64,000 bases of DNA from assembly GCA_963701825.1 (NCBI GenBank), contig CAVPBG010000003.1, forward strand, positions 451,762 to 515,761. The letters are read 5' to 3'. Below are positions 11,953 through 49,447 of the stretch, piece after piece. Under the pieces are notes generated by a model. It was not told the DNA's origin, made no database searches, and saw only the letters and a list, made by a program, of their open reading frames with translations. How positions within the stretch are numbered: the stretch's first letter is position 1; each line of letters begins with the position of its first letter. The position numbers and the translations under genes were made by a program. Source of the DNA: an uncultured Actinomycetes bacterium (GTDB lineage Bacteria; Actinomycetota; Acidimicrobiia; IMCC26256; PALSA-610).

Positions 11953-11956
11953 CCGA

Positions 11957-31178: not shown

Positions 31179-31817
31179 CTACGACGCGAGCTCGGGCCGG
31201 TGCGCGAACGCCCAGACCACGAGGGGGAATTCGTCCTGGTTGCGTAGTGATCGCCATGACCGCATCGGTGGAAACCGGCGCAAATTTCCCCGGACCGCGG
31301 TCTTGTTGCCCCAGCTGCCGATCTCGTCCACGACGAACCCGGATCCTTCGAGCAAACGGCGCATTCCGTCCTCGGTGAAGCGCCAGAAGTCGTACGGGGT
31401 CGGGTGCACCTTGATGAGGAAGGGCGTGCTGACGATGACGCGGCCGCCGGGCCGGCACAGGTCGTGCAACGTGCGCGTCGCCCGCCACGGATCGGGCACG
31501 TGCTCGAGCACCTGTTCACAGATCACGAGGTCGTGCACGTCGAGCGCGGCCGGCGGATCGCACAGGTCGAGCTGCGGGTACGCCGACGACGAGAACTCGC
31601 GCCACGGATGCCCGCGGTGCGACGTGCCGCTGATCTCGATCACCTTGGTCTGTTCGGGCCCGAGCGCACGAATGTGCTCGGTGATCTGCCCGTTCATGAC
31701 GATGCGGCACCACTGGTCGGTCGGGCCGCCGTCGCGATAGATGCGGGCCCGGAATCGACGCTGGGCGGCGCGGGCGACGCGACCCACGCGCAGGCGTTGC
31801 GTGAGCGCCTCGGGCAT
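31179..31817 (-). CDS. SAM-dependent methyltransferase (type 11-like), intact; paralog of 26491..27195
   Basis: The ATG at 31817 overlaps the sulfotransferase TGA. ...VIEISG...LVICEQVLEHVPDPWRATRTLHDLCRPGGRVIVSTPFLIKVHPTPYDFWRFTEDGM. Confidence 0.7.
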   Translation of the reverse strand: MPEALTQRLRVGRVARAAQRRFRARIYRDGGPTDQWCRIVMNGQITEHIRALGPEQTKVIEISGTSHRGHPWREFSSSAYPQLDLCDPPAALDVHDLVICEQVLEHVPDPWRATRTLHDLCRPGGRVIVSTPFLIKVHPTPYDFWRFTEDGMRRLLEGSGFVVDEIGSWGNKTAVRGNLRRFPPMRSWRSLRNQDEFPLVVWAFAHRPELAS

Positions 31818-32848
31818 CAGCGCTTCCGGAGCTCGCCGCGGGCCGCGCGGGCCGCGCGGCTCGCCCGGGCCGCGCCGTTCGCGACCGCGGCGCGGGTCGC
31901 GTCCCAGCCCGCGCGGACGCGGTCGGGACCGGCGTTGTCGGCCCACGACTCGTCGGGCTCGTACCCGAGCTCGACCAGGAGCGCGCCGGCGTGGCGGTTG
32001 AACACCGACCGTTCGAAGGGCCCCCACGAGTCCTGCCACGTGCCGCGGCGGCCTTCCCGGAAGAAGCCGTCGGGGAACTTCAACGACTCGCCCAGGCGCG
32101 CGACCAGTTCACCGCCGACGACGACCGACGTGTACGGCCGCGACGGATCGCGCTTCAGCTGGTCGAACGAGAACGCCTCGTACAGTGCGAGCGCCTCGTC
32201 GGAGTCAGTGGTGGCGCCGCAGAAGGTGAGCGTCTTCTCGAGCACGGCCGGGCCGTCGTCGAGGAGGTCTTCGTACCGGACCTCGAGATACTGGCCCGAC
32301 GCCGCGGCCGAGGCCGCGTTGCGCACTCCCCGCACCCACATCGACGACGCCTCGCCGATATCCGCCGGCGCCCACGTGCGGCCCCAGCCCTGAGCCGCGG
32401 CCACCAGCGAGCTCACGACATCGCGACCGTCGCGCACGAGGTGGATGAACCGGGCCTCGGGAAGATACGTGCGGATGACGTCGATCGGGTGGTGGTAGCC
32501 CGGGCACTTCTCCAACACGATGTTGGCGCCCGGCTTCAAGGCCACGACGGCCTCGTGGAACGAGGCGATCATCGCCCGGACCATCTCCGAGAACTCGGCC
32601 TCGGTCATCACCGACGACACGCCCTTCAACCGACCCACCGTCTTGGGGTCGGTCATGGCGTTGACCTCGTACGACCACGCGGCGTGGAGCTGGCGGATGT
32701 AGCCGGTGAAGAACTCCGGCTCCTGCGGACTCGCGATGGACGGATGCGCGGCGAGCATGCACTGCAGCCACGTCGTCCCACTGCGCGGCGATCCGACGAG
32801 AAATACCGGAACGTGGTTCAACGCGCGCCCCGAGAGAGCGGTTCCCAT
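31817..32848 (-). CDS. Sulfotransferase family protein (PAPS-dependent), intact
   Basis: MGTALSGRALNHVPVFLVGSPRSGTTWLQCML (5'-PSB loop)...FIHLVRDGRDVVSS (3'-PB region). 343 aa. Confidence 0.8.
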   Translation of the reverse strand: MGTALSGRALNHVPVFLVGSPRSGTTWLQCMLAAHPSIASPQEPEFFTGYIRQLHAAWSYEVNAMTDPKTVGRLKGVSSVMTEAEFSEMVRAMIASFHEAVVALKPGANIVLEKCPGYHHPIDVIRTYLPEARFIHLVRDGRDVVSSLVAAAQGWGRTWAPADIGEASSMWVRGVRNAASAAASGQYLEVRYEDLLDDGPAVLEKTLTFCGATTDSDEALALYEAFSFDQLKRDPSRPYTSVVVGGELVARLGESLKFPDGFFREGRRGTWQDSWGPFERSVFNRHAGALLVELGYEPDESWADNAGPDRVRAGWDATRAAVANGAARASRAARAARGELRKR

Positions 32849-33086
32849 CGTCACGATTGTAACTGGGTGCCTGTGATCGGTCGCCGGGCGGTTCGCCGGA
32901 AACGCCGCGACAGTGCTGCGCATCGTTGTCCGATTCGCGGGAAATCGCCGGGCCGCGCGCCCGCCGGCGACGCTTCTCGGCTCTCGACGCCGCCCGCGAC
33001 CCTGGCATATCCTTCCAGCTGGGCGGATAGACCGCAGCACAGGGTTGGTGCTGCGAGCATTCGACGGGGTCGAAGGGCCGGGGGGC
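32849..33086. promoter_or_regulatory. Divergent intergenic region between the sulfotransferase operon and the giant repeat-protein gene
   Basis: 238-nt spacer. Hairpin GCAGCAC-aggg ttg-GTGCTGC at about 33035-33056, just upstream of the ATG at 33087. No confident -10/-35 assignment. Confidence 0.3.
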
Positions 33087-36000
33087 ATGGGGGATCTGAA
33101 TCCGCAACGCGTTCGACTCGGACGCGTTCCTCGCACGCTCAGGACAGCCGCGCCGCGTGCGCTGGCCGCGCTCACGCTCGGGCTCGGCATCGCGGTCGTC
33201 ACCGCCGCGCCCGCGGTCGCGGCCGCGCCGTCGGCGCCGCAATCGGTCAACGTCACTCCGGGCCCGACGGTCGGGAACATGACCATCCGTTGGTCGTCGC
33301 CCGCGTCGACCGGTGGTGTCGCGATCACCGGGTTCCAGTACCAGGTTCATGTCGACGCGGGCGCGTTCGGCGCGCCGCTCACGCTCGGCCCGTCGACCGC
33401 GCGCTCCGCGGTCGTTCCTTGCGCCGCGCCCGCCACGACCGGGCACGGCTGCACGTACGAGGTCCGCGCGATCAACGGCACATCGGGCGCGTGGAGCGCG
33501 CCGGTCGCCGCGGTGTGGTCCGTGCCGAGCCCGGCCGTCCTCGGCCGCGCGCTCGCGGGCCCGGGCGCCGGAGTCGCGACGTTGCAGTGGCGCCCGTCGG
33601 CCAGCACCGGTGGCCTCGCCGTCAGTTACGAATACGAAGTCAGCACCGGCACCGGCTTTGGCGCACCCGTCGCGATCGCGCCGGGCTCGATCTCGCTGGT
33701 CCCGGGTGAGCCGTGGCCCGTCGACTCCGCCGCGGTCACCTGCCCGTTGGGCTCGGGACCTGTCGTCAGTTGTTCCTATGTCCTGTTGGCCGTGAACGGC
33801 GTGGGCGCGAGCCCGGTATCCGTCGTACGCACCGCGGTCGAGAAGCGGCCCGGCGCCGCGACCGGCATCACCGCGTCGAACACGTCCGTCGCGCTCGGCA
33901 CCGGGCTCGCGAGCCAGACCGTCGTGTGGACGCCGCCGACCGTCAGCGGCGGGACGCCCGTCACCGACAACCGGGTCTGGGTGTGCGCGACTGCGAACGG
34001 CACACCGTGCACGAACGTCTCGACGGGCTGGACGCAGGTCACCGACCTCGTCGGCACCCCGCCCGCGTCGACCACCCCCGCGGTGTGTCCGGCCAACGGG
34101 CGCTGCGGTTACGAGGTCTGGCCGACCAACGCCGTCGGTCACTCGTGGGCCGTCGGTTACTCGCACCCGAGCCCGCCCACGACGTTGATGGCAACCGCGA
34201 GCCTCGCCGCGCCGGGTCAGGTCACGTTGTCGTGGCAGGCAACTCCCGATTCCGGCACTGCGTTCGGCCACTACGTGTTGTTCGAATGTGACTCGAACCA
34301 GACGTGCACCAACGGCAGCTGGACCGCGAACCCCGCCGACGCCGCGCCGTGGAATGTCACTCAACTGACTGCAACGCCGACGGCCACCACCACTCAGTAC
34401 CCTTGCGGTGTCGTCCACGCCTGCACCTTCGAGATCGGCTACATCGACGCCTCGGGTCACATCGGCGGCGTCACCAACTCCGTCATCACGACGGGCCTCG
34501 ACGCACCCACCCTCACCGCGGTACCCGGCGCGACGCCCGGCGCGGTCAACCTGAGCTGGACCACACCCGCCACCGGGCAGATCAACCAGTACGAGATCGA
34601 CCGCGACACCGGCAGCGGCCTCGGCTTCCTGGCCGACGTCCCCGCCGCGCCGACGTCGTACATCGACACCACCTGCGGCGCGGGCGTGACGTGTCACTAC
34701 ACGGTGCGCGCCCTGCTGTTCCCGAGCGGCACGTCGCCCGCAAGCAACGAAGCATCCGCAACGGCCCCGCTCGACTCCGCGATCGCGATCACCACTCCGG
34801 TGGCGGGCGCGCGCCTCGGTGACTCCACTCCGACCTTCTCCGGCACCGCCGCGACCCGCGAACAGCGCCACCGTGACCGTGAAGGTCTGGGTCGGCGCTC
34901 TTCCGAGCGGAACATTGCAGGAGACCCTCACCACGACCCGCGCCGCCACGGCATGGACCGTCGACGCAACGACGCTGCCCGACGGCACCTACACCGTGCA
35001 GGCGCAACAGACCACACCGTCGTCGGGCGTCGTGTTGAGCCCGCCGATCACCTTCACCACCGACACCACGGGTCCGACCGTTTCGATCACGAGTGTGAAC
35101 GGCGCCGCGCACGCGTTGCCGTTCTCGACCAGTGCGAACGTCACATCGATCGGCGGCGCGTGCGGCACGGCCACCGGTGACAACGCGACCGTGTCGGTCG
35201 CGATCGGCGGCGCCGGTTCCGAGACCGGCACCGCGCCCTGCACCGCGGGCGCATGGGCGTACACGCTCGTCACCCCGCTCACAACCGGCGGCGCGTACAC
35301 CGCGACCGTCACCCAGGGCGACAGCACGCTCAACACCGGCACGACCGGAACGCAGAGCATCTCGATCGACAAGACCGCGCCGGTCGTCACCGTCACGACC
35401 GTCAACGGAACCGTGCGTGCCCTCCCGCTCTCGACGGCCACGACCGTCACTTCCATCGGCGGCGCGTGCGGCACGCTCGCGGGCGACGCGGCCACCGTCT
35501 CGATCGCGATCACCGGCGCGAGCACCCAGAACGGCACTGCGGCATGCACCGCCGGCGCCTGGAGCTTCGCGCCGGCCAGCGCGCTTTCGGCCGACGGCGT
35601 CTACTCCCTCACCGCCACCCAGACCGACGCGGCCGGCAACACCGGCACGAGCGGCGCGCAGACGGTCACCGTCGACAAGACCGCACCGGTCGTCACCCTC
35701 ACGACGGTCAACGGAACCGCGCGCACCTTCCCGTTCCTCAGCAACGCGACGATCACCACCGTCGGCGGCGCGTGTGGCGTGGCCACCGGTGACGCACCGT
35801 CGGTGTCGCTCACGCTCACCGGCGCCGGTAGCGAGAACGGTGTCGCGGCCTGCACCGCGGGCGCGTGGACGTACACATTCGTCAGCGCGCTGACCGTGAA
35901 CGGCGCGTACTCGGTCACGGCCACCCAGACCGATGCCGTGTCGAACACCGGTACGAGCGGAGCCAAGACGGTCAACCTCGACACCACCGCACCCACACTC

Positions 36001-39000
36001 ACGCTCACCACCATCAACGGAACCGTGCGGACGTTCCCGTTCACCACGAACACCACGGTGAGCACGTTCGGTGGCGTGTGTGGCTCGGCCTCGGGCGACA
36101 GCGCGAGCGTCAACGTCTCGATCACGGGCGCGGCCACCCAGAGCTCGACCGCAGCCTGCACCGCCGGCGCATGGTCGTTCTCGCCCGCGCCCGCCCTGTC
36201 GACGAGCGGCGTCTACTCGTTGAGCGCAACCCAGAGCGACACCGCAGGGAACACCGCGGCGACGGGCGCGCAGAGCCTGACGATCAACACCCTCGCCCCC
36301 ACCGTCACGCTGACGACGGTGAACGGCACGGCCCGCACCTTCCCGCTCACCACGAATGCCACCGCCACGTCGGTCGGCGGCACCTGCACCACCGCCGCGG
36401 GCGTGAACCCCACCGTCACGGTCGCGATCTCGGGCGCCAGCACGCAGAGCGGTTCCGCCACCTGCACGACCGGTGCGTGGACATTCACGCTCACCACCGC
36501 GCTCTCGGCCGACGGCGTGTACGCCGCCACCGCGACGCAGAGCGACACGTCGGGCAACACCGGTAGCAGCGGCGCGCAGGGCATCACCGTCGACAAGACG
36601 GCCCCGACCGTCGCGCTCTCCGCGGTCAACGGCACGACGCACACGTTCCCGTACACCGCGAACGTGTCGGTCACCTCGCTCGGCGGAACGTGTGGCGCGG
36701 CGATCGGCGACAGCACGAGCGTGGCCATCGCGATCACCGGGGCCAGCACGCAGAACGGCACCGCAACCTGTTCGGCGGGCGTGTGGACCTTCACGCCGGC
36801 CACCGCGTTGTCGAGTGACGGCGTCTACACCGTCACGGGCACGCAGACCGACGCCGCGACCAACAGCGGAACCACCGGCGCACAGACGATCACCGTCGAC
36901 AAGACCGCGCCGACCGTCACGTTGGCGAGCGTCAACGGAACGGCCCGCACATTCCCGTTCACCACGAACACCACCGCCACGACCGTCGGCGGCATCTGCG
37001 GCACGGCCTCCGGCGACGCCGCGACGGTCGCGGTCGTCGTCGGCGGCGCCGGGAGTGAGAGCGGCGCGGCCACGTGCACCTCGGGCAGCTGGACCTACAC
37101 CTTCGCCACCGCGTTGGCCGCCAACGGCACCTACACCGTCACGGCCACCCAGACCGACACCGCCGGCAACATCGGCTCCAGCGGGACGAAGAGCATCACC
37201 GTCGACACCACGGCGCCGGTCGTCACCCTCACCACCGCGAACGGCGCGGGCCGGACCTTCCCCTTCACCACCAACGCGACCGTCACGTCGTTCGGCGGTG
37301 CGTGTGGGTCGGCCGTGGGCGACGGCGCGGGCGTGACCGTGTCGATCACCGGCGCGAGCACGCAGAGCGGGACTGCCACCTGCACGGCCGGCGTGTGGAC
37401 CTTCACGCCCACGACGGCACTGTCGGCCGAAGGCACGTACTCCGTAAACGCTTCGCAGAGCGACACCGCGAGCAACACCGGCTCGACCGGCGCGCAGACG
37501 ATCACCGTCGACAAGACCGCACCGGTCGTCACGCTGACCACTGCGAACGGCACCGTGCGCACGTTCCCCTACCTGTCGAACGCGGTCGTCACGACTGTGG
37601 CCGGCGCGTGTGGTACCGCGGCGGGCGACAGCGCGACGGTTTCGGTCAGCGTGACCGGCGCCGGTAGCGAGAACGGCGCGGCCACATGCACCACCGGTGC
37701 GTGGAGCTACACGTTCGTGAGCTCCCTCGCCGTGAACGGTGCGTACAGCGTCACCGCAACCCAGACCGACGGCGCGGCCAACAACGGCACGAGTGGCGCC
37801 AAGACGATCACGGTCGACACGACCGCACCGGTCATCACGCTCACGTCGGTGAACGGGACCGTGCGTTCGTTCCCGTACACAACGAACACCAACGTCACCA
37901 CGGTGGGCGGCGCGTGCGGCAGCGCGTCGGGCGACATCGCCACGATCTCCGTCGCCATCACCGGCGCCAGCACGCAGAGCGGAACCGCCACGTGTGGCTC
38001 GGGAACGTGGACCTTCTCTCCCACGACCGCGCTCTCGGCCGACGGCACCTACTCGATCACGGCCACCCAGACCGACACCGCCGCGAACACGGGCACGACC
38101 GGCGCGCAGAGCGTCACGATCAACACCCTCGCCCCGATCGTCACGCTGGCCACGGTGAACGGCACCGCGCAGACCTTCCCGTTCTCGACCAACGCCACCG
38201 TCACGTCGGTGGGTGGTGCGTGCACGACCGCAGCCGGCGTCAACCCCACCGTCTCGGTCTCGATCACGGGCGTCAGCACGCAGTCCGGCTCGGCGACGTG
38301 TACGGCGAGCGCATGGTCGTTCACACCTGGAACCGCGTTGTCCGCCGAGGGCGTGTACAGCGTCACCGCAACCCAGACCGACAACTCGGCCAACACCGGT
38401 TCGAGCGGCGCCCGCAGCATCACCGTCGACAAGACGGCGCCCACCGTTGCGCTCACCGGCGTGAACGGAACGATCCGCACCTTCCCCTTCACCACCGCGT
38501 CGACCGTCACGACGTTCAGCGGCACGTGCGGCGGTTCGCTCGGCGACGCGGGCACGGTGGCGATCGCGATCACCGGCGCGAGCACGCAGAACGGCACCGC
38601 CACCTGCAGCGCGGGAACGTGGTCGTTCTCCCCCGTCACCGCCTTCTCGACCGACGGTGGCTACGTCGAGACCATCACCCAGACCGACGCTTCCGGGAAC
38701 ACGGGCACCACCGGCGCGCAGACCATCACGGTCGACAAGACCGCACCGGTGGTCACGATCGCCGCGGTCAACGGAACCGCCCGCACGTTCCCGTTCTCGA
38801 CCAACGCCAACGTCACGACGGTCGGCGGGGCGTGCGGCACGCTCACCGGTGACGGACCCACCGTGTCCGTCTCGGTCACCGGCGGCAGCACGCAGAGCGG
38901 AACCGCGGCCTGCACGACCGGCGCGTGGACGTTCACCCTCACCACCCCGTTGTCGGCCGTCGGTTCGTACGCGGTGACCGCCTCGCAGTCCGACAGCGTC

Positions 39001-41461: not shown

Positions 41462-42373
41462 GTGACCGCGAAGACCAGCGTCGACACGACCACTGTCGTC
41501 TACATCGCCGGGTACGGACGCAGCGGCAGCACCCTGCTCGACCTGTTGTTGGGGCGGCTCGACGGTTGGTTCTCCATGGGCGAGTTCCGGCTGTTCTGGC
41601 ACGCGACGCGCGACCACTGGCGGTGCGGTTGCGGCGCCGACGTGGAGAACTGCGACGTGTGGTCGCAAGTGCTGCGCGATGTCGCGCCCGCCGACCGCGA
41701 ACGCGTCCTCGCGCTGATCCGTACCACGCTGCGCACCCGGCGGGTGCCGGGCCTCGTCGTCCCGCCGCTGCTGGGCTCGCACCGCGCGGCCCGCGACGAT
41801 CTCGCCGCGATCCTCGGTGCCGTCTACCCCGCCGCCGCGAAAACCGCCGGCGCGCGTGTTCTCGTCGACTCGTCGAAAGACCCCGTCTACGGACTCGTGC
41901 TCGCCGGCGTCGCCGACCTGCGCGTGCACGTGGTGCATCTCGTGCGCGACAGCCGCGCGGTTGCGTGGTCGTGGCAACGCAAACGTCTGCGCCCGGAGAT
42001 CGGATCGACCGCCGCGTACATGCCCGTGCGTTCCGCGGTGCGCACCAGCCTCGACTGGGACCTCCGCAACGGGCTCGCGCACGTCCTCGGGCGGCGCGCG
42101 GAGTCGTACACCCGCCTCACCTACGAGTCCCTCGTGCGCGATCCCGACGCCGCGGTGGCGATGGTCGCGCGCCGCGTCGATCCCGGAATTTCCCTCGTTC
42201 CGGATCCGGCGAATCTCGGCAACCACACGGTCGCGGGGAATCCGATGCGGTTCGGGACGGGCGAGATCTCGGTCACGCCCGACATGGAATGGCGCGACTC
42301 GCTCGACCCGCGCGACCGGCGCGTCGTCTCCGCGCTGACGTGGCCGTTGCGCCGTCGGTACGGCTACGAGTGA
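41462..42373 (+). CDS. Sulfotransferase family protein, intact
   Basis: VVYIAGYGRSGSTLLDLLLG (PSB loop)...VVHLVRDSRAVAWS. 303 aa, 10 nt after the acyltransferase stop. Confidence 0.75.
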   Translation: MTAKTSVDTTTVVYIAGYGRSGSTLLDLLLGRLDGWFSMGEFRLFWHATRDHWRCGCGADVENCDVWSQVLRDVAPADRERVLALIRTTLRTRRVPGLVVPPLLGSHRAARDDLAAILGAVYPAAAKTAGARVLVDSSKDPVYGLVLAGVADLRVHVVHLVRDSRAVAWSWQRKRLRPEIGSTAAYMPVRSAVRTSLDWDLRNGLAHVLGRRAESYTRLTYESLVRDPDAAVAMVARRVDPGISLVPDPANLGNHTVAGNPMRFGTGEISVTPDMEWRDSLDPRDRRVVSALTWPLRRRYGYE

Positions 42374-43326
42374 TCGTGCTCGGCCTTGGCGACCCGGGTC
42401 GTCACCGCGTCCCGGGCCGCGTGGTACGCCGAGCGCACCGACCACGCGCAGCCCTGCACGGCCCAACTCGCGTTCATCGGGAAGAGCCCGTGGTACGGAT
42501 GGAACACGCGCGCACCGTCGGGCCGGACCGCCTCGACCAGAACGTTCGGGAGCAACACCGATCGCCGCGACCCGTTGAGGAAACGCTGGCGCCGGGTGGC
42601 CCGGCCCGCCGATCCGTCGGCCGGTCGCCACGCGGCGAAGCGTTCGTCTTCGACGATGCGGATGCCGTTGGCGACCGCCAGCGTCGGCAGGCGGTACTCC
42701 ACGTAGCCCACCTCGGGTTCGGGCAGCTCCGAGTACGCCGCGAGCAGGCGCCGGGGCAAGCACGCCACGACGAATACGCACGACATCGGCTCGACCGGGC
42801 CGAACTTCGCCTCGATGTTCGCGACGAAGGCCCGGTACTCCGCTTCGTGACCGCCGCGCACCCACACCCAGTTCTGTTCGACCGCGGCCACCGGCAACGC
42901 GGCCGACAACAGCACCTCGTCGGGTGCCAGCGGCCGCACGAGTCGGTCGACCGGGCCCAACACGAGCATGTCCCACTGCACGACGAAGACGTGTTCGAAG
43001 GAAAGGTGGGCACCGCGCGCCGCGAACCACGCCGCAATCATGAGATCGCCGTTGAGCCACTTCCACTTCGACGACACCGGTTGGTCGAACGCCCAGAAGT
43101 CGTCGAGCTGCGGGGCCAACGCGGCGCGGAACCGTTCCGCGTCGGCCGGGTCACCGCCGTAGAGGCCGTAGATCGGCGTATCCGGATTGTCGCGCCGGAG
43201 CAGGTCGAGGCGATTCCGGCACACCGGAAGGTCCTTGTAGAACCAAAACAGCACGCCGATCCGGTCGCCCACGCGGGCAACGGTACCGACTCGCGGCCGA
43301 CCCGCCGCGTCCTCGCCTAATGTCAC
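42364..43326 (-). CDS. Hypothetical soluble protein, function unknown (start uncertain; alternative GTG about 50 nt downstream)
   Basis: 320-aa ORF with GC3-rich codon usage. I recognise no motif. The 3' end overlaps the convergent sulfotransferase gene by 10 nt, and the 5' end overlaps the divergent gene by 7 nt. Confidence 0.55.
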   Translation of the reverse strand: MTLGEDAAGRPRVGTVARVGDRIGVLFWFYKDLPVCRNRLDLLRRDNPDTPIYGLYGGDPADAERFRAALAPQLDDFWAFDQPVSSKWKWLNGDLMIAAWFAARGAHLSFEHVFVVQWDMLVLGPVDRLVRPLAPDEVLLSAALPVAAVEQNWVWVRGGHEAEYRAFVANIEAKFGPVEPMSCVFVVACLPRRLLAAYSELPEPEVGYVEYRLPTLAVANGIRIVEDERFAAWRPADGSAGRATRRQRFLNGSRRSVLLPNVLVEAVRPDGARVFHPYHGLFPMNASWAVQGCAWSVRSAYHAARDAVTTRVAKAEHDHS

Positions 43327-44402
43327 CCGCCGGCATGCGAGTTCTCGTCACGTTCTGCAATCCGCGTTCGACCCCGCGCCTGGCCGCGTGCGCCATCGAC
43401 ACGGACACCGACGAGCGCGCCTGGCTCCCGGTCCCGCCCGCGTTCGACCGCGGCGCGGCCGGCATCGCCCGGATCGACGACGACCTGCTCGTCGCGTGCC
43501 AGTCCGGGGGTGTCGTCCGTTACGGACCCGACCTCGTTCCGAAGGCGACCATCCCCACCGCAAACGCGCGCAACCTGCATTCGATCCTCTACCGGCCGGA
43601 GGAGAACGCGCTGTACGTCGTGTCGGCGCACAACGACACGTTGTTCCGCTACCGCCTCGACGACACGGGCACGCGCGCCGTGGGAGCCGACGAGATCTAC
43701 TGCGCCGACCCGGAACGCCGGGGCCAGGACCGCTACCACCTCAACTCCGTCACGGAATGGCAGGGCAACCTCTACGTGACGATGTTCGGCCCCACGAACG
43801 GGCCGACGCACCTGCACCGGCGGCACGGCCGCGTCGTACGAGTCGATACGGGCGAAGAGATCGTCGGCGACCTCTACCACCCGCACTCGCTGTTCGTGCA
43901 CAACGACGGGCTGTTCGTCGTCGAGTCGCAGGCGCGCATCGTGCGTCGCATCGCGGGCGGCGAACCCATGTCGTGGGAGATCCCGGGCGGCTACCCGCGC
44001 GGACTCGTCGCCGCCGACGCCCGCCATCTGTGGGTCGGTGTGAGCGCGCTCCGGCGGGAGAGCAGCAGCCTCGGCACGCCGAACGTCATCACGTCCGTCG
44101 ACCCCGTCGACTTCAAGACGCGTCTCGTCGAGCTCGACCTCGACACCGGCACCGTCGGTCGGCAACTCGATCTCACCGCGCTCGCGGCCGAAGTGTTCGA
44201 CGTGCGCGCCCTCCCCGCGTCGGCCACGTTCACGCCCGATCCCGACCGGGGGCTGACCGAACGCGTCGACGCGCTCGAGGAGACCTTCCGGCGCATGCGA
44301 GCCGAACGCCAGGAGCTCGAGAACCGGCTCCGCGACACGCCCGTGCACCGGGCGCAGCGCTACGCGCGCCAGGTCGCCAAGCGCGTCCTCAAACGCTCCT
44401 AG
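43320..44402 (+). CDS. Hypothetical beta-propeller-like protein with C-terminal coiled coil (tentatively DUF4915/TIGR03032-like)
   Basis: 360 aa. Repeated blade-like strings LHSILYRPEENALYVVSAHNDTLFRY, YHLNSVTEWQGNLYVTMFG, YHPHSLFVHNDGLFVVESQ, PRGLVAADARHLWVGVS. The family assignment is from memory only. An alternative start is MRVLVTF at 43335. Confidence 0.5.
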   Translation: MSPAGMRVLVTFCNPRSTPRLAACAIDTDTDERAWLPVPPAFDRGAAGIARIDDDLLVACQSGGVVRYGPDLVPKATIPTANARNLHSILYRPEENALYVVSAHNDTLFRYRLDDTGTRAVGADEIYCADPERRGQDRYHLNSVTEWQGNLYVTMFGPTNGPTHLHRRHGRVVRVDTGEEIVGDLYHPHSLFVHNDGLFVVESQARIVRRIAGGEPMSWEIPGGYPRGLVAADARHLWVGVSALRRESSSLGTPNVITSVDPVDFKTRLVELDLDTGTVGRQLDLTALAAEVFDVRALPASATFTPDPDRGLTERVDALEETFRRMRAERQELENRLRDTPVHRAQRYARQVAKRVLKRS

Positions 44403-44409
44403 GCGGGCG

Positions 44410-45474
44410 TCAGACGCCCTGCGGCGGAGGCCCGGCCGGCGCTTCGGTCGTCGAGGGCGGCTCCATCGTGCGACCGAGCTTGCCCGTCCACGCGTCGGCA
44501 CACGCCCGCACTCCCGCAGTGAAGAGCTTCGGGCTCGCGTTGCGCCGGACGAGGTCGAGCACGGGGCGCCCCAAGAGGTGGCCGGCGGTGATTTTCGCGG
44601 CGCGCGGCGCCGACGTGTAGCGCCGCATGATCACGATGTGGTTCCGCACGCTGTAGTAGCGGCGCCACGGATTCTCCCGGCGGGGCGCGCGACCCACATC
44701 GGTACCGAGCCGCCCGAAACGGCGACGCGCTTCGAGCGCCTTCGGTCCGAGCACGTACACGCCGTAGCCGTGCAAGCGCAGCCGTTCGCAGAAGTCGAGG
44801 TCGTCGAAACCGAAGAACAGCGCCGGATCGAACACGCCGATCTCGCGCACCGCGCCGACGCGCAACATGAGCATCTGGCCGCCGGCCACGTAGTCGACGC
44901 GGACCGGGCCCGCGAGTTCGTCGTCGGTGAGGCGGACCAGCCGACCGCGCTTGCGGTCGAACCACGCGCCGACCTGTCCGACGCCGCCGACCGGCGCGCC
45001 CCGTTCGACCAGGAACTCGCCGAAGTCCCGCAGGTCGCGCGCGGTGTCGCCCGGGCCGGTGAGGCGATCGTCGTCGAGGATCAGTATCCAGTCGCCGTCG
45101 GCCGCGGTCTCGATGACCCGGGCCATGCCCGCCGCGTTCCCGCCCGCGGGGCCGGAGTTCTCCGGCATCGGTATGTACGTGGTCGAAAGCTCCGCCGCTT
45201 TGCTCCGCGCCACCCGTTCGGACGCTTCCGAAGGCGCGTTGTCGACGACGGTCAACGACGCGAGCCCGATGCCCGTCAGCTCGTCGATCATCCGCGCCAA
45301 CGAGTCCGGGCGATTGAAGGTGACGAGCACTCCATGAATTCCACTGGGAATCCCATTGGTCGTCGTCGCGGCGACCGGAGCCGGGGCCGGCGGAACCGGC
45401 GGAACCGGCGGAACCGGCGGTGAATTCTCGGTGCCGGCCGGACGCGCCGTACGACAGGGAGCTCCGCGCGACAC
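44410..45474 (-). CDS. Glycosyltransferase family 2 (rhamnosyltransferase-like); start uncertain (GTG 45474 with a Pro-rich leader, or GTG 45330)
   Basis: GVLVTFNRPDSLARMIDEL...LTVVDNAPSEAS...PENSGPAGGNAAGM...WILILDDD (DxD). Confidence 0.75.
   Translation of the reverse strand: MSRGAPCRTARPAGTENSPPVPPVPPVPPAPAPVAATTTNGIPSGIHGVLVTFNRPDSLARMIDELTGIGLASLTVVDNAPSEASERVARSKAAELSTTYIPMPENSGPAGGNAAGMARVIETAADGDWILILDDDRLTGPGDTARDLRDFGEFLVERGAPVGGVGQVGAWFDRKRGRLVRLTDDELAGPVRVDYVAGGQMLMLRVGAVREIGVFDPALFFGFDDLDFCERLRLHGYGVYVLGPKALEARRRFGRLGTDVGRAPRRENPWRRYYSVRNHIVIMRRYTSAPRAAKITAGHLLGRPVLDLVRRNASPKLFTAGVRACADAWTGKLGRTMEPPSTTEAPAGPPPQGV
45392..45418. repeat. 9-bp tandem repeat (ggaaccggc x3, plus partial flanks) encoding PPV/GSA low-complexity sequence
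   Basis: Read directly: cggaaccggcggaaccggcggaaccggcgg. Confidence 0.9.
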
Positions 45475-45653
45475 TCGCCAGGTTGCGGTAGCGCGCCAAC
45501 GACAACGGATCGTTCTTCACCGCCGCGAGCGTCGCGGTCATCGCCTCCCGCCGGCGCCCGAGGCGCGCCGCGTTCACTCCGACGATCGCCTGATACGTCG
45601 CCCGGCGTTTGCGCGGCGACGCCACCCCGGCCATCTCGCTCTCGAGCGGTTGG

Positions 45654-46352
45654 TCAGGGTGGTCGAGGATCCAACGGGCCGCCTCGTACTTCGCGGTGTC
45701 GTACTCGCGGCGTCGCCTGCGTGTAACGAACCACCACCGGTTCGGGTACGAGCCCCATGGTCGCGTCGGCCGCCGCGAGCGCCTGCTTCACGCGCCAACC
45801 GAGCTCGGTGTTCTCGCTGTAACGCAGCTGGGTGTCGTAGCCGCCGATGCCGAGGAAGATGTCGGTCGCCACCGCGAACGCGCCCGGCAGGAATCCCATC
45901 CCGCGCGGGATCGACGTGCGCCAGTCGCGCCGATCGGGCGACACCTGGATCCGACCGCCGACCACCGCCCGCCAACCGTGGGCCGCGAGCGCGTCCGAGT
46001 AGCGCTCGAGCGCGATCGGCAGCAGCTCGTCGTCGCTGTCGAGGAACACCAGGAACTCGCCCGCCGCGATCGCCGCGCCCGCGTTGCGCGCCGCCGACAC
46101 TCCCGACTGTGCCTGCGCGTGGTAGCGGATGCGCGGGTCGGCCATCGCGGCGACGACCGCGTCGGTCCCGTCGGTGGAGCCGTCGTCGACGATGACGAGC
46201 TCGAGATCGCCGCAGGTCTGGCCCAACACGCTCTTCATCGCGAGCGGCAGCAGATGCGCGCGATTGAGGGTCGGGATCACGACGCTGAACCGCGGTGCCC
46301 CGAGCCCGGATTTCTCAGCGGCGGAGCTCTCGGTCGGTTGCGGTGTCGACAT
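45654..46352 (-). CDS. Glycosyltransferase family 2; probably frame-shifted near 45700, with a helical C-terminal extension continuing to about 45440
   Basis: RFSVVIPTLNRAHLLPLAMKSVLGQT...ELVIVDDGSTDGT...ARNAGAAIAAGEFLVFLDSDD. After VVRYTQ the adjacent frame reads YDTAKYEAARWILDH...RATYQAIVGVNAARLGRR.., resembling the C-terminal helices of the other GT2s in this window. Confidence 0.75.
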   Translation of the reverse strand: MSTPQPTESSAAEKSGLGAPRFSVVIPTLNRAHLLPLAMKSVLGQTCGDLELVIVDDGSTDGTDAVVAAMADPRIRYHAQAQSGVSAARNAGAAIAAGEFLVFLDSDDELLPIALERYSDALAAHGWRAVVGGRIQVSPDRRDWRTSIPRGMGFLPGAFAVATDIFLGIGGYDTQLRYSENTELGWRVKQALAAADATMGLVPEPVVVRYTQATPRVRHREVRGGPLDPRPP

Positions 46353-46801: not shown

Positions 46802-46896
46802 GCGCCCCGAACCGCCCGACGGGCTGATGCGGTTCATCAGATCACCGTTAGACTTTTCCGATCGCTACCGCCGACCACACACCCGAAGCACCGGCC

Positions 46897-47637
46897 GTGA
46901 CCGACCCGCCGTTCCACCGCTATTCCGTGGGCATGCGGAACGGCTACGACCTCATGGGCGGGCTGCAGTTCACGCTGCTCTTCGCGCTGGGCCTGCGGGA
47001 ACAACACCGCGTCTGCGACGTCGGGTGCGGATCGCTTCGCGTCGGCCGCTTCCTGATCCCGTACCTCGAGGCCGGCAACTACTACGGCATCGAGCCTCGC
47101 CAAGAAGTGGTGGAGGCGGGCATCGATCAAGAGGTCGGCCGCGACCTCCTCGCGGCCCGCCATCCACACTTCGACTACGGAACCGATTTCGGCCTGGCCC
47201 GCTTCGACACCAGCTTCGACTTCGTGATCGCGCAGTCGGTGTTCTCGCACACGTATCGCGATCTCGCGACGGTCGGCCTCGACGCGATCCGTGCCACCCT
47301 CGCACCCGAGGGGCTTTTCGTCGGCACGGTGTACGAGGAGTACCCGGTGTTGTTGCCGCGCGGCCACAACGCTCGTCCCGATGAAGGCTCCGGCTTCGTG
47401 CACCAGGGCGCGGTCGCGTACACGTGGCGCGACTGGAAGGCGATGCTCGAGCGCGCCGGCCTCGTCGGATACCGCATGCGCTGGTACCACAACCGCCAAA
47501 CCTGGTTCGTCGCCGCCGCCGCGGGCCGCGACGCCGCACTGAAACACACCATCAACCGCGCGATCCCCCGCCTCCGCGGTCCGGGTTTCGCCGGTCACGT
47601 CAAGCGCCGGGTGTTGGCCAAAATCAAACCGGGCTGA
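46897..47637 (+). CDS. Class I SAM-dependent methyltransferase, intact
   Basis: ...HRVCDVGCGSLRVGRFL (motif I)...FDFVIAQSVFSH...LAPEGLFVGT. Confidence 0.7.
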   Translation: MTDPPFHRYSVGMRNGYDLMGGLQFTLLFALGLREQHRVCDVGCGSLRVGRFLIPYLEAGNYYGIEPRQEVVEAGIDQEVGRDLLAARHPHFDYGTDFGLARFDTSFDFVIAQSVFSHTYRDLATVGLDAIRATLAPEGLFVGTVYEEYPVLLPRGHNARPDEGSGFVHQGAVAYTWRDWKAMLERAGLVGYRMRWYHNRQTWFVAAAAGRDAALKHTINRAIPRLRGPGFAGHVKRRVLAKIKPG

Positions 47638-47642
47638 GTCTC

Positions 47643-48479
47643 GTGGCGCCCCGGTTCAGCGTCATCATCCCGACCTACGGTCGGCCGCAGTTCCTCGCCG
47701 ACGCACTGGCATCGGTGGCACAGCAGTCGTTCGCCGATTTCGAATGTCTGGTCGTCGACGACGCGAGCGCGGCGCCGCCCGAGCTGGCCGCGGCCGACGC
47801 GCGCTTTCGGCTGGTGCGCCGCACCACGAACGGCGGGCCGGCCGCGGCGCGCAACACCGGTATCGCGGCCGCGACCGGCAACTACGTCGCCTTCCTCGAC
47901 GACGACGACACCTGGACGCCGGACCGCCTCGATCACGCCGCCCGCGCCCACGAAGACGCGCCGGTTGCGGTCTGCGGCCAGGGCACGCTCGGCGAAACGC
48001 TCCCCGCCGCGCCGGGCCGCGTTCTCGTGGGCGACGTGCGCGACACCATCCTCGACGGCATCACGCCGCACCTCGGCGCCACCAGTGTCGAACGCGCGGT
48101 CACGCTGACGTTCGACGAGCGTTACCGCGGCTCCGAAGACGTCGATTGGTGGCTGCGGACCGCGCAGCAGTCGCGCGTCGCCGCCGCGTCCGGGGTGGGG
48201 TTGCTCTACCGCCGCCACGACGCACCCCGCCCGGGAACCGATCGCGCGGCCCGCATCCGCGGTGCGCAATTGCTCCTCACCGAGCACGCGGCGTGGTTCG
48301 CGACGCATCCGCACGCCCACGCCTTCCGGCTGAAGCGCATGGGCCTGCTCGCGCTGCAGGCCGGTGACCGGCCGCTCGCCCGGCGCTGCTTCGCCCGGGC
48401 CCTGCGCCTCCACCCCGAAGCGCGCACCGCGTGGCACGCGTTGCGCTCGTTCGCACCCCAACCGGCCGGCGCGCGATGA
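47643..48479 (+). CDS. Glycosyltransferase family 2, intact
   Basis: GTG start. RFSVIIPTYGRPQFLADALASVAQQSF...CLVVDDAS...ARNTGIAAATGNYVAFLDDDD. Confidence 0.85.
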   Translation: MAPRFSVIIPTYGRPQFLADALASVAQQSFADFECLVVDDASAAPPELAAADARFRLVRRTTNGGPAAARNTGIAAATGNYVAFLDDDDTWTPDRLDHAARAHEDAPVAVCGQGTLGETLPAAPGRVLVGDVRDTILDGITPHLGATSVERAVTLTFDERYRGSEDVDWWLRTAQQSRVAAASGVGLLYRRHDAPRPGTDRAARIRGAQLLLTEHAAWFATHPHAHAFRLKRMGLLALQAGDRPLARRCFARALRLHPEARTAWHALRSFAPQPAGAR

Positions 48480-49447
48480 ACACCGTCGACCGGAAGCCCT
48501 TTCCATTCGTCGTCGGATGCGGCCGTTCGGGCACCACGCTCGTGCGCGCCATGCTCGACGCGCACCGCGAGATGGCCGTGCCGTTCGAGTCGTACTTCCC
48601 CGTGTGGTTCGCCCGACAGCGCGCGTCGTACGAACGCCCCGAAGGATTCGCAACCGCCAAGTTCACCGCCGATCTGTTGGCACACGAGTCGTTCCGGCGT
48701 TGGCACCTCGATCCCGCCTTCGTCGAAGAAGGGTTCGTGGCGGCCGCGCCCACGAACTACCCGGACGCGGTCCGCACCGCGTTCGCGCTCTACGCCCGCG
48801 CCCACGACAAGGTGCGCTACGGCGACAAGACCCCCATCTTCGTCACCCACATCCCCACCGTCGCCGAGCTGTTCCCCGAATCGGTGTTCGTGCATCTCGT
48901 GCGCGACGGCCGCGCGGTTGTGCTCTCCCGCGCGCAGGCGTCGTGGGGCACCGATCGCCTCGAATTCGAGACGCTGCTCTGGAAGTCGCAGGTCGAACAG
49001 GGTCGGGCCGACGGAACCGCGCTCGGACCCTGCCGCTACCGCGAGATCCACTACGAAGCGATCCTCGACGATCCCGAGCACGCCGCGCACGAGCTGTGCG
49101 AGATCGCGGGCCTGGAGTTCGATCCGGGCATCCTCACGTATCACGAGCGCGCCACGACCATCCTCGACGATCAGCCGTTTCCCGAGGAGCACCAGAACCT
49201 GCTGCGCCCGCCGACCAAGGGCCTGCGCGACTGGCAGACCGAGCTGAGCCCGATGCAGATCGAGCTGTTCGAATGCCTGGCCGGCGACACCCTCGAGGCG
49301 TTCGGCTACGAGCGCACGACCAAGACCGCGTCGGCGGCGGTTCGGGCCCGGGCCTTGCGCGCCCGCGCCCGCTACGAATCGACGCGCCAATTCCGCCGGG
49401 CGCGCAGCCGGATGTGGCACCTGGTCCACCGCGAAGCGGTCAAATGA
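48476..49447 (+). CDS. Sulfotransferase family protein, intact
   Basis: The ATG at 48476 overlaps the upstream TGA (ATGA). PFPFVVGCGRSGTTLVRAML (PSB loop)...FVHLVRDGRAVVLS. Confidence 0.8.
   Translation: MNTVDRKPFPFVVGCGRSGTTLVRAMLDAHREMAVPFESYFPVWFARQRASYERPEGFATAKFTADLLAHESFRRWHLDPAFVEEGFVAAAPTNYPDAVRTAFALYARAHDKVRYGDKTPIFVTHIPTVAELFPESVFVHLVRDGRAVVLSRAQASWGTDRLEFETLLWKSQVEQGRADGTALGPCRYREIHYEAILDDPEHAAHELCEIAGLEFDPGILTYHERATTILDDQPFPEEHQNLLRPPTKGLRDWQTELSPMQIELFECLAGDTLEAFGYERTTKTASAAVRARALRARARYESTRQFRRARSRMWHLVHREAVK

What the first reader, a model, noticed from the sequence alone, without database searches (positions are those of the whole stretch)
31817..49447. Three different sulfotransferases in one bacterial glycan locus
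ORFs 31817..32848 (-), 41462..42373 (+) and 48476..49447 (+) each carry the PAPS-binding P-loop-like string (SPRSGTTW / GRSGSTLL / GRSGTTLV) and the downstream (V/I)HLVRD(G/S)R motif. Otherwise they are clearly different in sequence and length. Each is translationally coupled to, or within about 10 nt of, another modifying enzyme (methyltransferase, acyltransferase-3, GT2).

Sulfated cell-surface glycans are uncommon in bacteria (Nod factors, mycobacterial sulfolipids, some cyanobacterial EPS). Multiple distinct sulfation steps on one product would be unusual. No PAPS-synthesis genes (cysD/N/C-type) are in the window.
Basis: partly seen in the sequence, partly recalled or inferred. Interest (0 to 1): 0.6.

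Follow-up and report, generated by a model that had tools for sequence, protein, structure and literature searches.

The report
Three sulfotransferases in actinobacterial glycan locus
An uncultured soil actinobacterium carries three different, intact sulfate-transferring enzymes inside one large sugar-polymer gene cluster, and related bacteria carry three to five in the same kind of cluster, so these poorly known microbes probably make heavily sulfated, methylated surface sugars, but no chemistry has confirmed this.

Summary
ORFs 31817-32848(-), 41462-42373(+) and 48476-49447(+) are PAPS-type sulfotransferases of the TPST/CurM-like Sulfotransfer_3 family. Pfam scores are 125, 26.8 (cut-off 27) and 114 bits. 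The weak one (ST2) is confirmed by a family of over 1,699 members, a profile hit to solved sulfotransferases (E 2.5e-14) and a confident model whose best fold matches are all sulfotransferases. The three are only 26-28% identical to each other. All keep the PAPS-binding loops and the catalytic Glu and Lys, and all are under purifying selection.

They lie in a ~39-kb lipid-linked glycan cluster (about 11.0-50.3 kb) with an amino-sugar pathway, a WecA-like primer, GT4/GT2 enzymes, an ABC exporter, six methyltransferases and two AT3 acyltransferases. The genome has cysDN, an APS-reductase-type cysH and a separate cysC, so PAPS appears to be made for sulfation.

Three sulfotransferases per locus is not unique. 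A congener has three, with ST1's cassette swapped for non-orthologous genes. Homologous loci elsewhere have four and five. The giant Ig-repeat protein genes are not core to the locus type.

Verdict: a real and probable multiply sulfated glycan locus, and a new member of a known but rarely documented kind. The substrate and product are inferred only.

The parts
31817..32848 (-). ST1, a 343-aa cytoplasmic Sulfotransfer_3 sulfotransferase (alternative GTG start at 32854)
   Evidence: PF13469 125 bits and PF00685 65.7 bits. Best solved relatives are the OLS sulfotransferase domain 4gox (E 6e-12), the CurM sulfotransferase and TPST1/2. dN/dS is 0.05 against the 93%-identical relative. It is 98% identical at protein level in G001.
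41462..42373 (+). ST2, a 303-aa divergent sulfotransferase of a widespread uncharacterised subfamily with an invariant CxC-x6-C motif and an NHTVAGNP motif
   Evidence: PF13469 26.8 bits against a cut-off of 27. It has over 1,699 homologues, mostly tagged PF13469 or named sulfotransferase. Alignment A1 shows the invariant residues. The family profile hits 4gox at E 2.5e-14 and CurM sulfotransferase at 5.9e-11. The AF2 model has pLDDT 92.9. The top Foldseek hits are all sulfotransferases. dN/dS is 0.16.
48476..49447 (+). ST3, a 323-aa Sulfotransfer_3 sulfotransferase
   Evidence: PF13469 113.8 bits. The best solved relatives are TPST2 and TPST1 (E 3e-9), with the PSB loop, Glu and Lys aligned. 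Orthologues are 95% identical in G001, 75% in G042 and 61% in L139. dN/dS is 0.11.
31179..31817 (-). SAM methyltransferase translationally coupled to ST1 (TGATG overlap)
   Evidence: Methyltransf_23/11. Junction checked. Orthologue 67% identical in L140.
29016..30995 (-). AT3-SGNH membrane O-acyltransferase
   Evidence: PF01757 106 bits plus PF19040 96 bits. Sub-threshold match to mycobacterial SucT.
33087..40269 (+). Giant secreted fn3 + 17x Big_13 repeat protein (22% Thr), split in this assembly by a 1-base frameshift near 34852
   Evidence: fn3 and Big_13 at 388 bits. Tandem repeat of 306 bp x 16.9 copies. It is one continuous frame in G001 and G042. It is absent from the homologous loci L139 and L140.
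40288..41451 (+). AT3 acyltransferase (no SGNH domain), between the giant protein gene and ST2
   Evidence: PF01757 107.6 bits with 8 predicted TM segments. 99% identical in G001 and 78% in G042.
42364..43272 (-). Unannotated family, predicted divergent GT-A-fold glycosyltransferase, conserved next to ST2 homologues
   Evidence: No Pfam or NCBIfam hit. AF2 pLDDT 92.5. Foldseek hits at probability 1.0 to GfsA, GT6, GT8 glycogenin and CpsY, with TM-scores of 0.35-0.45. The orthologue is adjacent in L140 and in the JGI contig.
43335..44402 (+). DUF4915 / TIGR03032-like protein of unknown function, conserved in the locus type
   Evidence: PF16261 53 bits. TIGR03032 49.7 bits, below its cut-off. 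Orthologues in G042, L140 and the JGI contig.
44410..46280 (-). Two GT2 domains, possibly one gene split by assembly frameshifts
   Evidence: PF00535/PF13641. Frame pieces seen. The homologous JGI contig has a single 609-aa GT2 gene at this position.
46897..47637 (+). SAM methyltransferase
   Evidence: Methyltransf_12 41 bits.
47643..48479 (+). GT2 glycosyltransferase with a TPR tail, translationally coupled to ST3 (ATGA overlap)
   Evidence: PF00535 106 bits. Junction checked.
49454..50290 (+). SAM methyltransferase 6 nt downstream of ST3
   Evidence: Methyltransf_31/24. Junction checked.
21983..28996 (.). Conserved core of the locus: ABC exporter (21983-23836 -), MT (23836-24528 -), GT2 (24528-25373 -), GT2 (25525-26472 +), MT (26491-27195 +), GT2 (27192-28211 +), MT (28208-28996 +)
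   Evidence: Pfam. The ABC exporter resembles MsbA, HepA, ChvA and PglK-type exporters, all below equivalog cut-offs. Orthologues are 53-66% identical in L139 and L140.
11032..21953 (.). Sugar-precursor and initiation genes: epimerase, PglF/PseB-like 4,6-dehydratase, DegT aminotransferase, WecA-family (Glycos_transf_4) primer, two GNATs, polysaccharide deacetylase, two GT4s. Several are split by frameshifts.
   Evidence: Pfam. NCBIfam PseB/FnlA-like. Gene pieces seen.

Best explanation
The three ORFs are cytoplasmic, PAPS-dependent O-sulfotransferases of three old, distinct subfamilies of the TPST/CurM-like Sulfotransfer_3 group.

They most likely act on different hydroxyls, or different sugars, of a polyprenyl-phosphate-linked heteroglycan built by the surrounding ~39-kb cluster. 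The proposed sequence is:
1. A WecA-family enzyme primes the lipid carrier, probably with an N-acetylated amino-deoxy sugar made by the dehydratase, aminotransferase and GNAT genes.
2. GT4, GT2 and a novel GT-A-like enzyme extend the chain.
3. SAM methyltransferases and the three sulfotransferases decorate it on the cytoplasmic face, where PAPS is available.
4. An MsbA/PglK-type ABC exporter moves it across the membrane.
5. AT3 and AT3-SGNH enzymes O-acylate it.

PAPS comes from CysDN plus a stand-alone CysC. Assimilation itself uses an APS-reductase-type CysH, so PAPS production appears dedicated to sulfation.

What is shown: family membership, conserved catalytic residues, purifying selection, the PAPS pathway, and cluster content and conservation. 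What is inferred: the acceptor is the glycan, the order of steps, and a single final product.
For: Sulfotransferase identity:
- Pfam scores, PDB sequence hits with the PSB loop, Glu at +21 and Lys aligned, and the ST2 model and fold search.
- None of the three has a signal peptide or TM segment at its N-terminus (sequences).

Real genes:
- dN/dS is 0.05-0.16 against a 93%-identical genome.
- Orthologues of ST2 and ST3 were found in G001, G042 and L139, with ST2 also in L140; ST1's orthologue was found only in G001.

Glycan context:
- Every neighbouring gene is a GT, MT, AT3 or sugar-pathway gene.
- The genes are tightly coupled.
- The gene next to ST2 is a GT-A-fold protein.
- ST2-family genes elsewhere often sit beside GT2/GT4 genes.

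Recurrence of the locus type:
- Homologous loci carry 3, 4 and 5 sulfotransferases with the same ABC, GT2 and MT core.
- The ST/AT3/MT cassette is swapped between congeners, as expected for surface-glycan diversification.

PAPS supply:
- CysC, CysD and CysH, CysN.
- CysH carries the CC and CxxC motifs of APS reductases (motif meaning from established knowledge).

Lineage:
- 36 of 41 relatives have PF13469 hits, with 4-13 per genome in all 20 same-genus genomes searched.
Against: There is no biochemical or compositional evidence, because the organism is uncultured.

Sulfotransfer_3 membership does not predict the acceptor. The nearest characterised relatives sulfate protein tyrosine or a polyketide intermediate, not sugars.

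No polymerase, ligase, LCP or oligosaccharyltransferase was recognised in the window, so the fate of the exported product is unknown.

ST2 scores just under the Pfam cut-off.

Only 5 of the genome's 11 PF13469 hits lie within 10 kb of a GT1 or GT2 hit, so not all sulfotransferases here need be glycan enzymes.

The assembly has many frameshifts, so some cluster genes could be broken in reality.
Confidence: 0.7

Rival explanations
1. The product is not a polymer. It is a short, secreted or membrane-bound decorated oligosaccharide or glycolipid, a sulfated, methylated, acylated lipo-oligosaccharide similar in logic to Nod factors or mycobacterial sulfoglycolipids, exported by the ABC transporter.
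For: The enzyme classes mirror Nod-factor tailoring: GT2, a NodB-like polysaccharide deacetylase, acyl/GNAT transferases, methyltransferases, sulfotransferases, an AT3 (NolL-type) and an ABC exporter. The only NCBIfam hit of ST1 and ST3 is NoeE, far below its cut-off. No Wzy, Wzz or chain-length genes were recognised. A Ser/Thr kinase and FHA-cyclase signalling module is conserved next to the locus in a distant contig.
Against: There are 9-10 glycosyltransferase genes, which suggests a larger repeat or chain. A WecA-type primer and a diamino-sugar pathway are typical of lipid-linked envelope glycans. The NoeE scores are 27-41 bits against a cut-off of 500. No NodA or NodC equivalog was found.
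Confidence: 0.15
2. The glycan is attached to the giant Thr-rich Ig-repeat surface proteins encoded inside and beside the cluster, making a sulfated, mucin-like glycoprotein. AT3 and ST2 would be co-expressed with their protein substrate.
For: The order giant gene, then AT3 (18-nt gap), then ST2 (10-nt gap) on one strand is conserved in G001 and G042. The protein is 22% Thr and 9% Ser and has a signal peptide. The ST cassette is divergently transcribed from the giant gene in both G000 and G042.
Against: Homologous loci L139, L140 and the JGI contig keep ST2, ST3, the GTs and the MTs but have no giant protein or AT3 next to ST2. The proteins therefore look like insertions into an older glycan locus. 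No O- or N-oligosaccharyltransferase or PMT gene is in the window. Sulfotransferases are cytoplasmic while the protein is exported.
Confidence: 0.1
3. One or more of the enzymes sulfates protein tyrosine (TPST/RaxST-like) or a non-sugar small molecule, and the glycan context is incidental.
For: The best solved relatives of ST3 are TPST1 and TPST2. Those of ST1 and ST2 are TPSTs and the CurM/OLS activating sulfotransferases.
Against: The enzymes have no signal peptide or TM segment, while the candidate protein substrates are secreted. Only 1 of 39 Tyr in the giant protein has an acidic context. There is no RaxX-like precursor and no PKS or NRPS gene in the window. The genes are translationally coupled to a GT2 and to methyltransferases. 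Identity to TPSTs is only about 12-16% in fold alignments.
Confidence: 0.05

Closest known systems
Synechan (xss) sulfated exopolysaccharide cluster of Synechocystis sp. PCC 6803 (PMC8205485)
   Same: It is a bacterial glycan cluster that carries more than one sulfotransferase of distinct subfamilies alongside many glycosyltransferases. Sulfation is proposed to occur on the lipid-linked repeat unit in the cytoplasm. [quoted passage not shown]
   Different: xss has two sulfotransferases and uses Wzx, Wzy and PCP, and its product has been chemically verified. Here there are three sulfotransferases (3-5 in homologous loci), an MsbA/PglK-type ABC exporter, six methyltransferases and two AT3 acyltransferases. 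The host is an actinobacterium and there is no chemical evidence.
wps-1 cluster of Actinoplanes missouriensis (PMC13390465)
   Same: It is an actinomycete EPS cluster with two predicted sulfotransferases from different families plus a methyltransferase. Sulfated polysaccharide is proposed but not yet verified chemically.
   Different: wps-1 is Wzx/Wzy-dependent, and its sulfotransferases are annotated as Gal/GlcNAc- and heparan-sulfate-type domains. The present enzymes are TPST/CurM-like Sulfotransfer_3 proteins in an ABC-exporter locus of an uncultured lineage. Genetics exists for wps-1 but not here.
Rhizobial Nod-factor, LPS and K-antigen sulfation (NodH, NoeE, LpsS with NodPQ) and mycobacterial Stf0-type glycolipid sulfation (own knowledge; Mougous 2002 is cited in PMC8205485)
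   Same: These are PAPS-dependent cytoplasmic sulfation of saccharide acceptors in bacteria. They are combined with methyl and acetyl tailoring and a dedicated PAPS supply.
   Different: The NoeE model scores 27-41 bits against a cut-off of 500. Stf0 and Stf9 appear only as weak fold hits. There are no nodABC equivalogs. PAPS genes are unlinked to the locus.
Tyrosylprotein sulfotransferases TPST1/2 and the CurM/OLS PKS sulfotransferase domains (solved structures 3ap1, 5wrj, 4gbm, 4gox)
   Same: They share the fold and the same catalytic layout: a 5'-PSB loop (xRSGxT), a Glu base 21 residues after the loop Arg, a Lys, and a 3'-PB motif (RDxR...S).
   Different: The enzymes here are stand-alone cytoplasmic proteins in a glycan cluster. 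They are not Golgi or luminal enzymes and not PKS modules. Identity is about 12-20%. ST2 has an extra invariant Cys cluster and an NHTVAGNP motif.

Membership tests
PAPS-dependent sulfotransferase superfamily (Pfam Sulfotransfer_3, PF13469) | 5'-phosphosulfate-binding loop (P-loop-like, xRSG(T/S)T) near the N-terminus | tested here: met
   SPRSGTTW, GRSGSTLL and GRSGTTLV are present. The loop is invariant in the ST2 family alignment and aligns to the PSB loop of TPST2, OLS and CurM sulfotransferases.
PAPS-dependent sulfotransferase superfamily (Pfam Sulfotransfer_3, PF13469) | 3'-phosphate-binding motif (strand, then RDxR...S) in mid-protein | tested here: met
   IHLVRDGRDVVSS, VHLVRDSRAVAWS and VHLVRDGRAVVLS are present. 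They align to the HLVR/VRDGRA motifs of 4gox and TPST2. H159, R162, D163, S164, R165 and S170 are invariant in A1.
PAPS-dependent sulfotransferase superfamily (Pfam Sulfotransfer_3, PF13469) | Catalytic Glu base about 21 residues after the PSB Arg, plus catalytic Lys (TPST/CurM-type active site; residue roles from published structures, own knowledge) | tested here: met
   Glu is at +21 in all three (counted) and aligns with the GEE of TPST2 and the PPEL of OLS/CurM. The Lys in LEKCP, DSSKDP and GDKTP aligns with the DKSP/NKDP Lys.
PAPS-dependent sulfotransferase superfamily (Pfam Sulfotransfer_3, PF13469) | Profile score above the curated gathering threshold (27 bits) | tested here: met
   ST1 scores 125 bits and ST3 113.8 bits, so the test is met for these two. 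ST2 scores 26.8 bits, which is borderline; it reaches 27.7 bits when joined with its neighbouring matches in the same frame in the whole-genome six-frame search. ST2's homologues are mostly tagged PF13469, and its family profile hits solved sulfotransferases at E 2.5e-14.
PAPS-dependent sulfotransferase superfamily (Pfam Sulfotransfer_3, PF13469) | Sulfotransferase alpha/beta fold | tested here: met
   Tested for ST2 only. The AF2 model has pLDDT 92.9 and pTM 0.91. The top Foldseek PDB hits are all sulfotransferases at probability 1.0, with TM-scores of 0.46-0.62. ST1 and ST3 were not modelled.
PAPS-dependent sulfotransferase superfamily (Pfam Sulfotransfer_3, PF13469) | A PAPS supply in the same genome (ATP sulfurylase plus APS kinase) | tested here: met
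   CysC scores 205 bits at C4:340045. CysD is present. CysN scores 573 bits against a cut-off of 336. CysH is of the APS-reductase type.
PAPS-dependent sulfotransferase superfamily (Pfam Sulfotransfer_3, PF13469) | Measured sulfuryl transfer from PAPS to an acceptor | not testable with these tools
   This needs enzyme assays.
Tyrosylprotein sulfotransferase (TPST/RaxST) | Access to a secreted peptide or protein substrate with Tyr in an acidic context, or an adjacent RaxX-type precursor gene | tested here: not met
   The enzymes have no signal or TM segment. Only 1 of 39 Tyr in the adjacent giant protein has three or more Asp/Glu within 5 residues either side. No small precursor gene was seen.
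Activating sulfotransferase domain of PKS off-loading modules (CurM/OLS type) | Embedded between ACP and TE domains of a polyketide synthase | tested here: not met
   All three are stand-alone 303-343-aa proteins. No PKS domain was found in any called gene of the window.
Nod-factor sulfotransferase NoeE (NCBIfam NF052394) | Equivalog score of at least 500 bits | tested here: not met
   ST1 scores 40.6 bits, ST3 scores 27.3 bits and ST2 has no hit.
Wzx/Wzy-dependent sulfated EPS cluster (synechan xss type) | Wzx flippase, Wzy polymerase and PCP genes in the cluster | tested here: not met
   No such Pfam family was hit by any called gene between 11 and 50 kb. A fused TMD-NBD ABC exporter is present instead. 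Caveat: genes split by frameshifts could escape detection.

The most novel reading that the evidence does not exclude
The cluster makes a multiply sulfated, methylated and acylated glycan that is O-linked to the 22%-Thr giant Ig-repeat protein encoded in its middle. That would be a bacterial counterpart of a sulfomucin coat. More broadly, this uncultured soil actinobacterial lineage would carry a previously unrecognised class of heavily sulfated envelope glycoconjugates built by loci with 3-5 sulfotransferases.
Probability: 0.1. Interest if true: 0.75.

Novelty: new member of a known kind. Interest (0 to 1): 0.42.

Why it matters
Two recent papers (PMC8205485, PMC13390465) state that sulfated polysaccharides in bacteria are reported essentially only from cyanobacteria. 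One of them raises actinomycetes as a new possibility, without chemical proof.

This locus and its homologues carry 3-5 sulfotransferases and up to 8 methyltransferases. All 20 same-genus genomes searched have 4-13 sulfotransferase hits, and a dedicated APS kinase is present.

Together these suggest that polyanionic, sulfated surface glycans may be a regular feature of abundant uncultured soil Actinomycetota. If confirmed, this would affect:
- how these cells bind water, metals and minerals in soil;
- phage and predator recognition, given the swapped decoration cassette;
- the search for microbial sources of sulfated polysaccharides and regio-specific carbohydrate sulfotransferases.

It also flags two unannotated families linked to sulfation loci: the ST2 subfamily with its Cys cluster, and a divergent GT-A-like protein.

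Tried and rejected
- NCBIfam scans of the three enzymes gave only a far sub-threshold NoeE match, so no equivalog could be assigned.
- A PDB sequence search with ST2 alone was nearly empty, so a family profile and a model were needed.
- Tyrosine sulfation of the neighbouring giant protein was considered and set aside. The enzymes have no export signal, and only 1 of 39 Tyr lies in an acidic context.
- A polyketide or NRPS tailoring role was rejected, because no such genes are in the window.
- A search for an ST1 orthologue in the congener G042 found none. The position is taken by a different sulfotransferase, 35% identical.
- I looked for an oligosaccharyltransferase, ligase, Wzx or Wzy among all called genes and found none.
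- I first read the giant-protein-AT3-ST2 operon as a hint that the protein is the target. Homologous loci without the protein weakened this reading.
- A PDB sequence search with the profile of the unknown 302-aa protein found nothing. Only the fold search was informative.
- A literature search for sulfotransferases in Acidimicrobiia found nothing relevant.
- The ORF list is swamped by spurious open frames at 70% GC. Genes were therefore called with a codon-usage model, which also exposed many frameshifts.

Full report
**Observation**

The window is 70% GC. Raw ORF lists are dominated by spurious frames, so I called genes with GC3 and a codon-usage model.

The three ORFs are real coding frames:
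- ST1: 31817-32848/32854 (-)
- ST2: 41462-42373 (+)
- ST3: 48476-49447 (+)

Their translations carry the quoted strings. Pfam assigns PF13469 (Sulfotransfer_3) as follows:
- ST1: 125 bits
- ST3: 113.8 bits
- ST2: 26.8 bits, against a cut-off of 27

ST1 and ST3 also hit PF00685. NCBIfam offers only a far sub-threshold NoeE match. The three proteins are 26-28% identical to each other.

- TGATG overlap between ST1 and the methyltransferase.
- A 10-nt gap between the AT3 and ST2.
- ATGA overlap between the GT2-TPR and ST3.
- A 6-nt gap between ST3 and the next methyltransferase.

**Are they sulfotransferases?**

Against solved structures:
- ST1 is closest to the sulfotransferase domains of the Synechococcus olefin synthase and CurM, and to TPST1/2.
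- ST3 is closest to TPST2 and TPST1.
- ST2 alone gives only a weak hit.

ST2 nevertheless belongs to a family of at least 1,699 proteins of about 300 aa. These are mostly tagged PF13469, and some are named sulfotransferase.

An alignment of 27 members (A1) shows these invariant features:
- the GRSGST loop;
- a Glu at position 41;
- DSSK;
- HLVRDSRAV..S;
- a CxC-x6-C cluster;
- an NHTVAGNP motif.

The A1 profile hits the OLS sulfotransferase at E 2.5e-14, CurM sulfotransferase at 5.9e-11 and TPSTs at about 1e-5. An AlphaFold model built on A1 has pLDDT 92.9. Its best PDB fold matches are all sulfotransferases at probability 1.0.

In all three proteins a Glu lies 21 residues after the loop Arg and aligns with the catalytic Glu region of TPST2, OLS and CurM. 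A Lys aligns with the DKSP/NKDP Lys. The residue roles come from the published structures (my knowledge).

None of the three has a signal peptide or membrane segment, so they should work in the cytoplasm.

**Are they live genes?**

A public MAG (OY970186.1, uncultured Actinomycetes bacterium) is 93% identical over 21 kb. It conserves ST1 at 98%, ST2 at 93-94% and ST3 at 95% protein identity.

dN/dS is 0.05, 0.16 and 0.11 respectively, similar to neighbouring genes.

Both assemblies contain many single-base frameshifts. This fits error-prone long-read assembly and explains the low completeness estimate.

**Context**

Pfam and NCBIfam scans of all called genes show a glycan cluster from about 11.0 to 50.3 kb. 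It contains:
- an epimerase;
- a PglF/PseB-like 4,6-dehydratase;
- a DegT aminotransferase;
- a WecA-family primer;
- two GNATs;
- a polysaccharide deacetylase;
- two GT4s;
- a fused ABC exporter resembling MsbA, HepA, ChvA and PglK;
- six SAM methyltransferases;
- about seven GT2 domains;
- an AT3-SGNH and an AT3;
- a DUF4915 protein;
- a 302-aa protein with no family.

The 302-aa protein has about 150 homologues. Its model (pLDDT 92.5) matches GT-A glycosyltransferases such as GfsA, GT6, glycogenin and CpsY. It is therefore probably an unannotated glycosyltransferase paired with ST2.

No Wzx, Wzy, ligase, LCP or oligosaccharyltransferase was recognised.

**PAPS supply**

The genome has the following:
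- a stand-alone APS kinase next to purF;
- cysH-cysD;
- cysN at 573 bits.

All lie outside the window. CysH carries the CC and CxxC motifs typical of Fe-S APS reductases. Assimilation therefore should not need PAPS, and the APS kinase is best explained as serving sulfotransferases (inference from established pathway knowledge).

**Comparative picture**

The genome has 11 PF13469 matches. All 20 same-genus genomes searched have 4-13 matches, and these are often clustered.

A congener, G042, has the same locus at 65-85% protein identity, with ST2 at 68% and ST3 at 75%. However, the block MT / AT3-SGNH / MT / ST1 is replaced there by a non-orthologous sulfotransferase (126 bits), another AT3-SGNH, two unknown proteins and an FkbM methyltransferase. 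The enzyme classes are the same but the genes differ, which is the behaviour of a decoration cassette in a surface-glycan locus.

Orthologues of the three enzymes are patchy across the family. None was found at E<=1e-30 in two nearly complete same-genus genomes.

More distant homologous loci tell the same story:
- An Acidimicrobiia MAG contig (L139) shares the ABC-GT2-GT2-MT core, ST2 and ST3 at 53-66% identity, and carries four sulfotransferases.
- An ENA contig (L140) shares the ABC-GT2-GT2-MT core, ST2, the GT-A-like gene and DUF4915 at 53-66% identity; its best match to ST3 is only 44% identical. It carries five sulfotransferases, with up to eight methyltransferases.
- Neither L139 nor L140 has a giant protein or AT3 next to ST2.
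- A JGI contig has the window's gene order from ST2 to the kinase/FHA-cyclase genes, but without the Calx and PKD giant protein genes.

The giant Ig-repeat protein genes therefore look like later insertions into an older multi-sulfotransferase locus type.

**Limits**

- The acceptor is not known.
- Only 5 of the 11 sulfotransferase hits in this genome lie within 10 kb of a GT1 or GT2 hit.
- ST2-family genes elsewhere sit beside GT2/GT4 genes in only a minority of 80 loci.
- The closest characterised relatives act on tyrosine or a polyketide.

**Comparison with the literature**

The synechan cluster has two sulfotransferases. Its authors wrote that such clusters had not been seen in other bacteria (PMC8205485). 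A 2026 study proposes, without chemical proof, a sulfated EPS from a two-sulfotransferase cluster in Actinoplanes (PMC13390465).

The present locus is a further and richer example in an uncultured actinobacterial lineage that uses an ABC exporter.

**Verdict**

It is a new member of a known but sparsely documented kind. Its main added value is the evidence that such loci recur, and vary, across a whole lineage.

Noticed in passing
window 34840-34870: The giant surface protein is split by a single extra base near 34852. It consists of an fn3 N-terminal part (33087-34854) and 17 Big_13 repeats (34873-40269). In two related genomes the two parts form one continuous frame of about 2,390 aa. The split is probably an assembly indel, and less likely a strain-specific mutation.
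   Followed up: yes
window 42364-43272 (-): This 302-aa protein has no Pfam or NCBIfam family. It has about 150 homologues, several apparently on the same contigs as ST2 homologues (matching contig lengths), and is adjacent to the ST2 homologue in two related loci, with invariant QWD and HP motifs. A confident model matches GT-A glycosyltransferases (GfsA, GT6, GT8, CpsY) at low TM-scores of 0.35-0.45. It is a candidate new glycosyltransferase family tied to sulfation loci.
   Followed up: partly
window 41462-42373 (ST2) and alignment A1: The ST2 subfamily has an invariant C55-x-C57-x6-C64 cluster and an invariant NHTVAGNP motif. Neither is present in ST1, ST3 or the solved relatives. They may form a metal or disulfide site, or an acceptor-binding element. 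Members occur in many phyla, including Thermus, Micromonospora, Rubrobacter and Chloroflexota.
   Followed up: partly
window 28208-32854 versus L136:2126-7604 (G042): In a congener, the block MT / AT3-SGNH / MT / ST1 is replaced by a non-orthologous block of ST / AT3-SGNH / two unknowns / FkbM-type MT, while the flanks stay syntenic. This is a swapped decoration cassette next to the divergent promoter of the giant protein gene.
   Followed up: yes
window 50356-59069 and 59219-63532: The Calx-beta protein and the PKD/Big_13 giant protein are missing from a homologous metagenome contig. The giant protein is itself split near 56134-56151. In that contig the methyltransferase after the ST3-like gene is followed directly by the Ser/Thr kinase, a membrane protein and the FHA-adenylate cyclase. 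The kinase/cyclase module is therefore the conserved neighbour of the glycan locus, and the giant protein genes look like insertions.
   Followed up: partly
whole window, e.g. 13800-16100, 16314-16956, 44410-46280, 62393-63532: Many genes are broken into adjacent frame pieces, including the dehydratase, DegT, the WecA-like gene, the GT2 pair and the FHA-cyclase. The 93%-identical relative has frameshifts at other positions (in ST2 and ST3). This pattern fits long-read assembly indels and not pseudogenes, and it probably explains the 73% completeness estimate.
   Followed up: partly
G000:C4:340045-346835 (L001, L138): The stand-alone APS kinase gene lies next to purF and about 6 kb from another strong Sulfotransfer_3 gene (140 bits). 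No GT1 or GT2 hit is nearby, so that sulfotransferase may have a non-glycan substrate.
   Followed up: no
window 26491-27195 (+) and 31179-31817 (-): These two methyltransferases are paralogues, about 41% identical by tblastn through the relative's copies. They sit in inverted orientation within the cluster.
   Followed up: partly
window 63505-64000 (-): A GT4/GT1-family glycosyltransferase gene starts at the window's end, and a second lies just beyond it (genome C3:515362-516947). Another glycan gene set may begin there.
   Followed up: no
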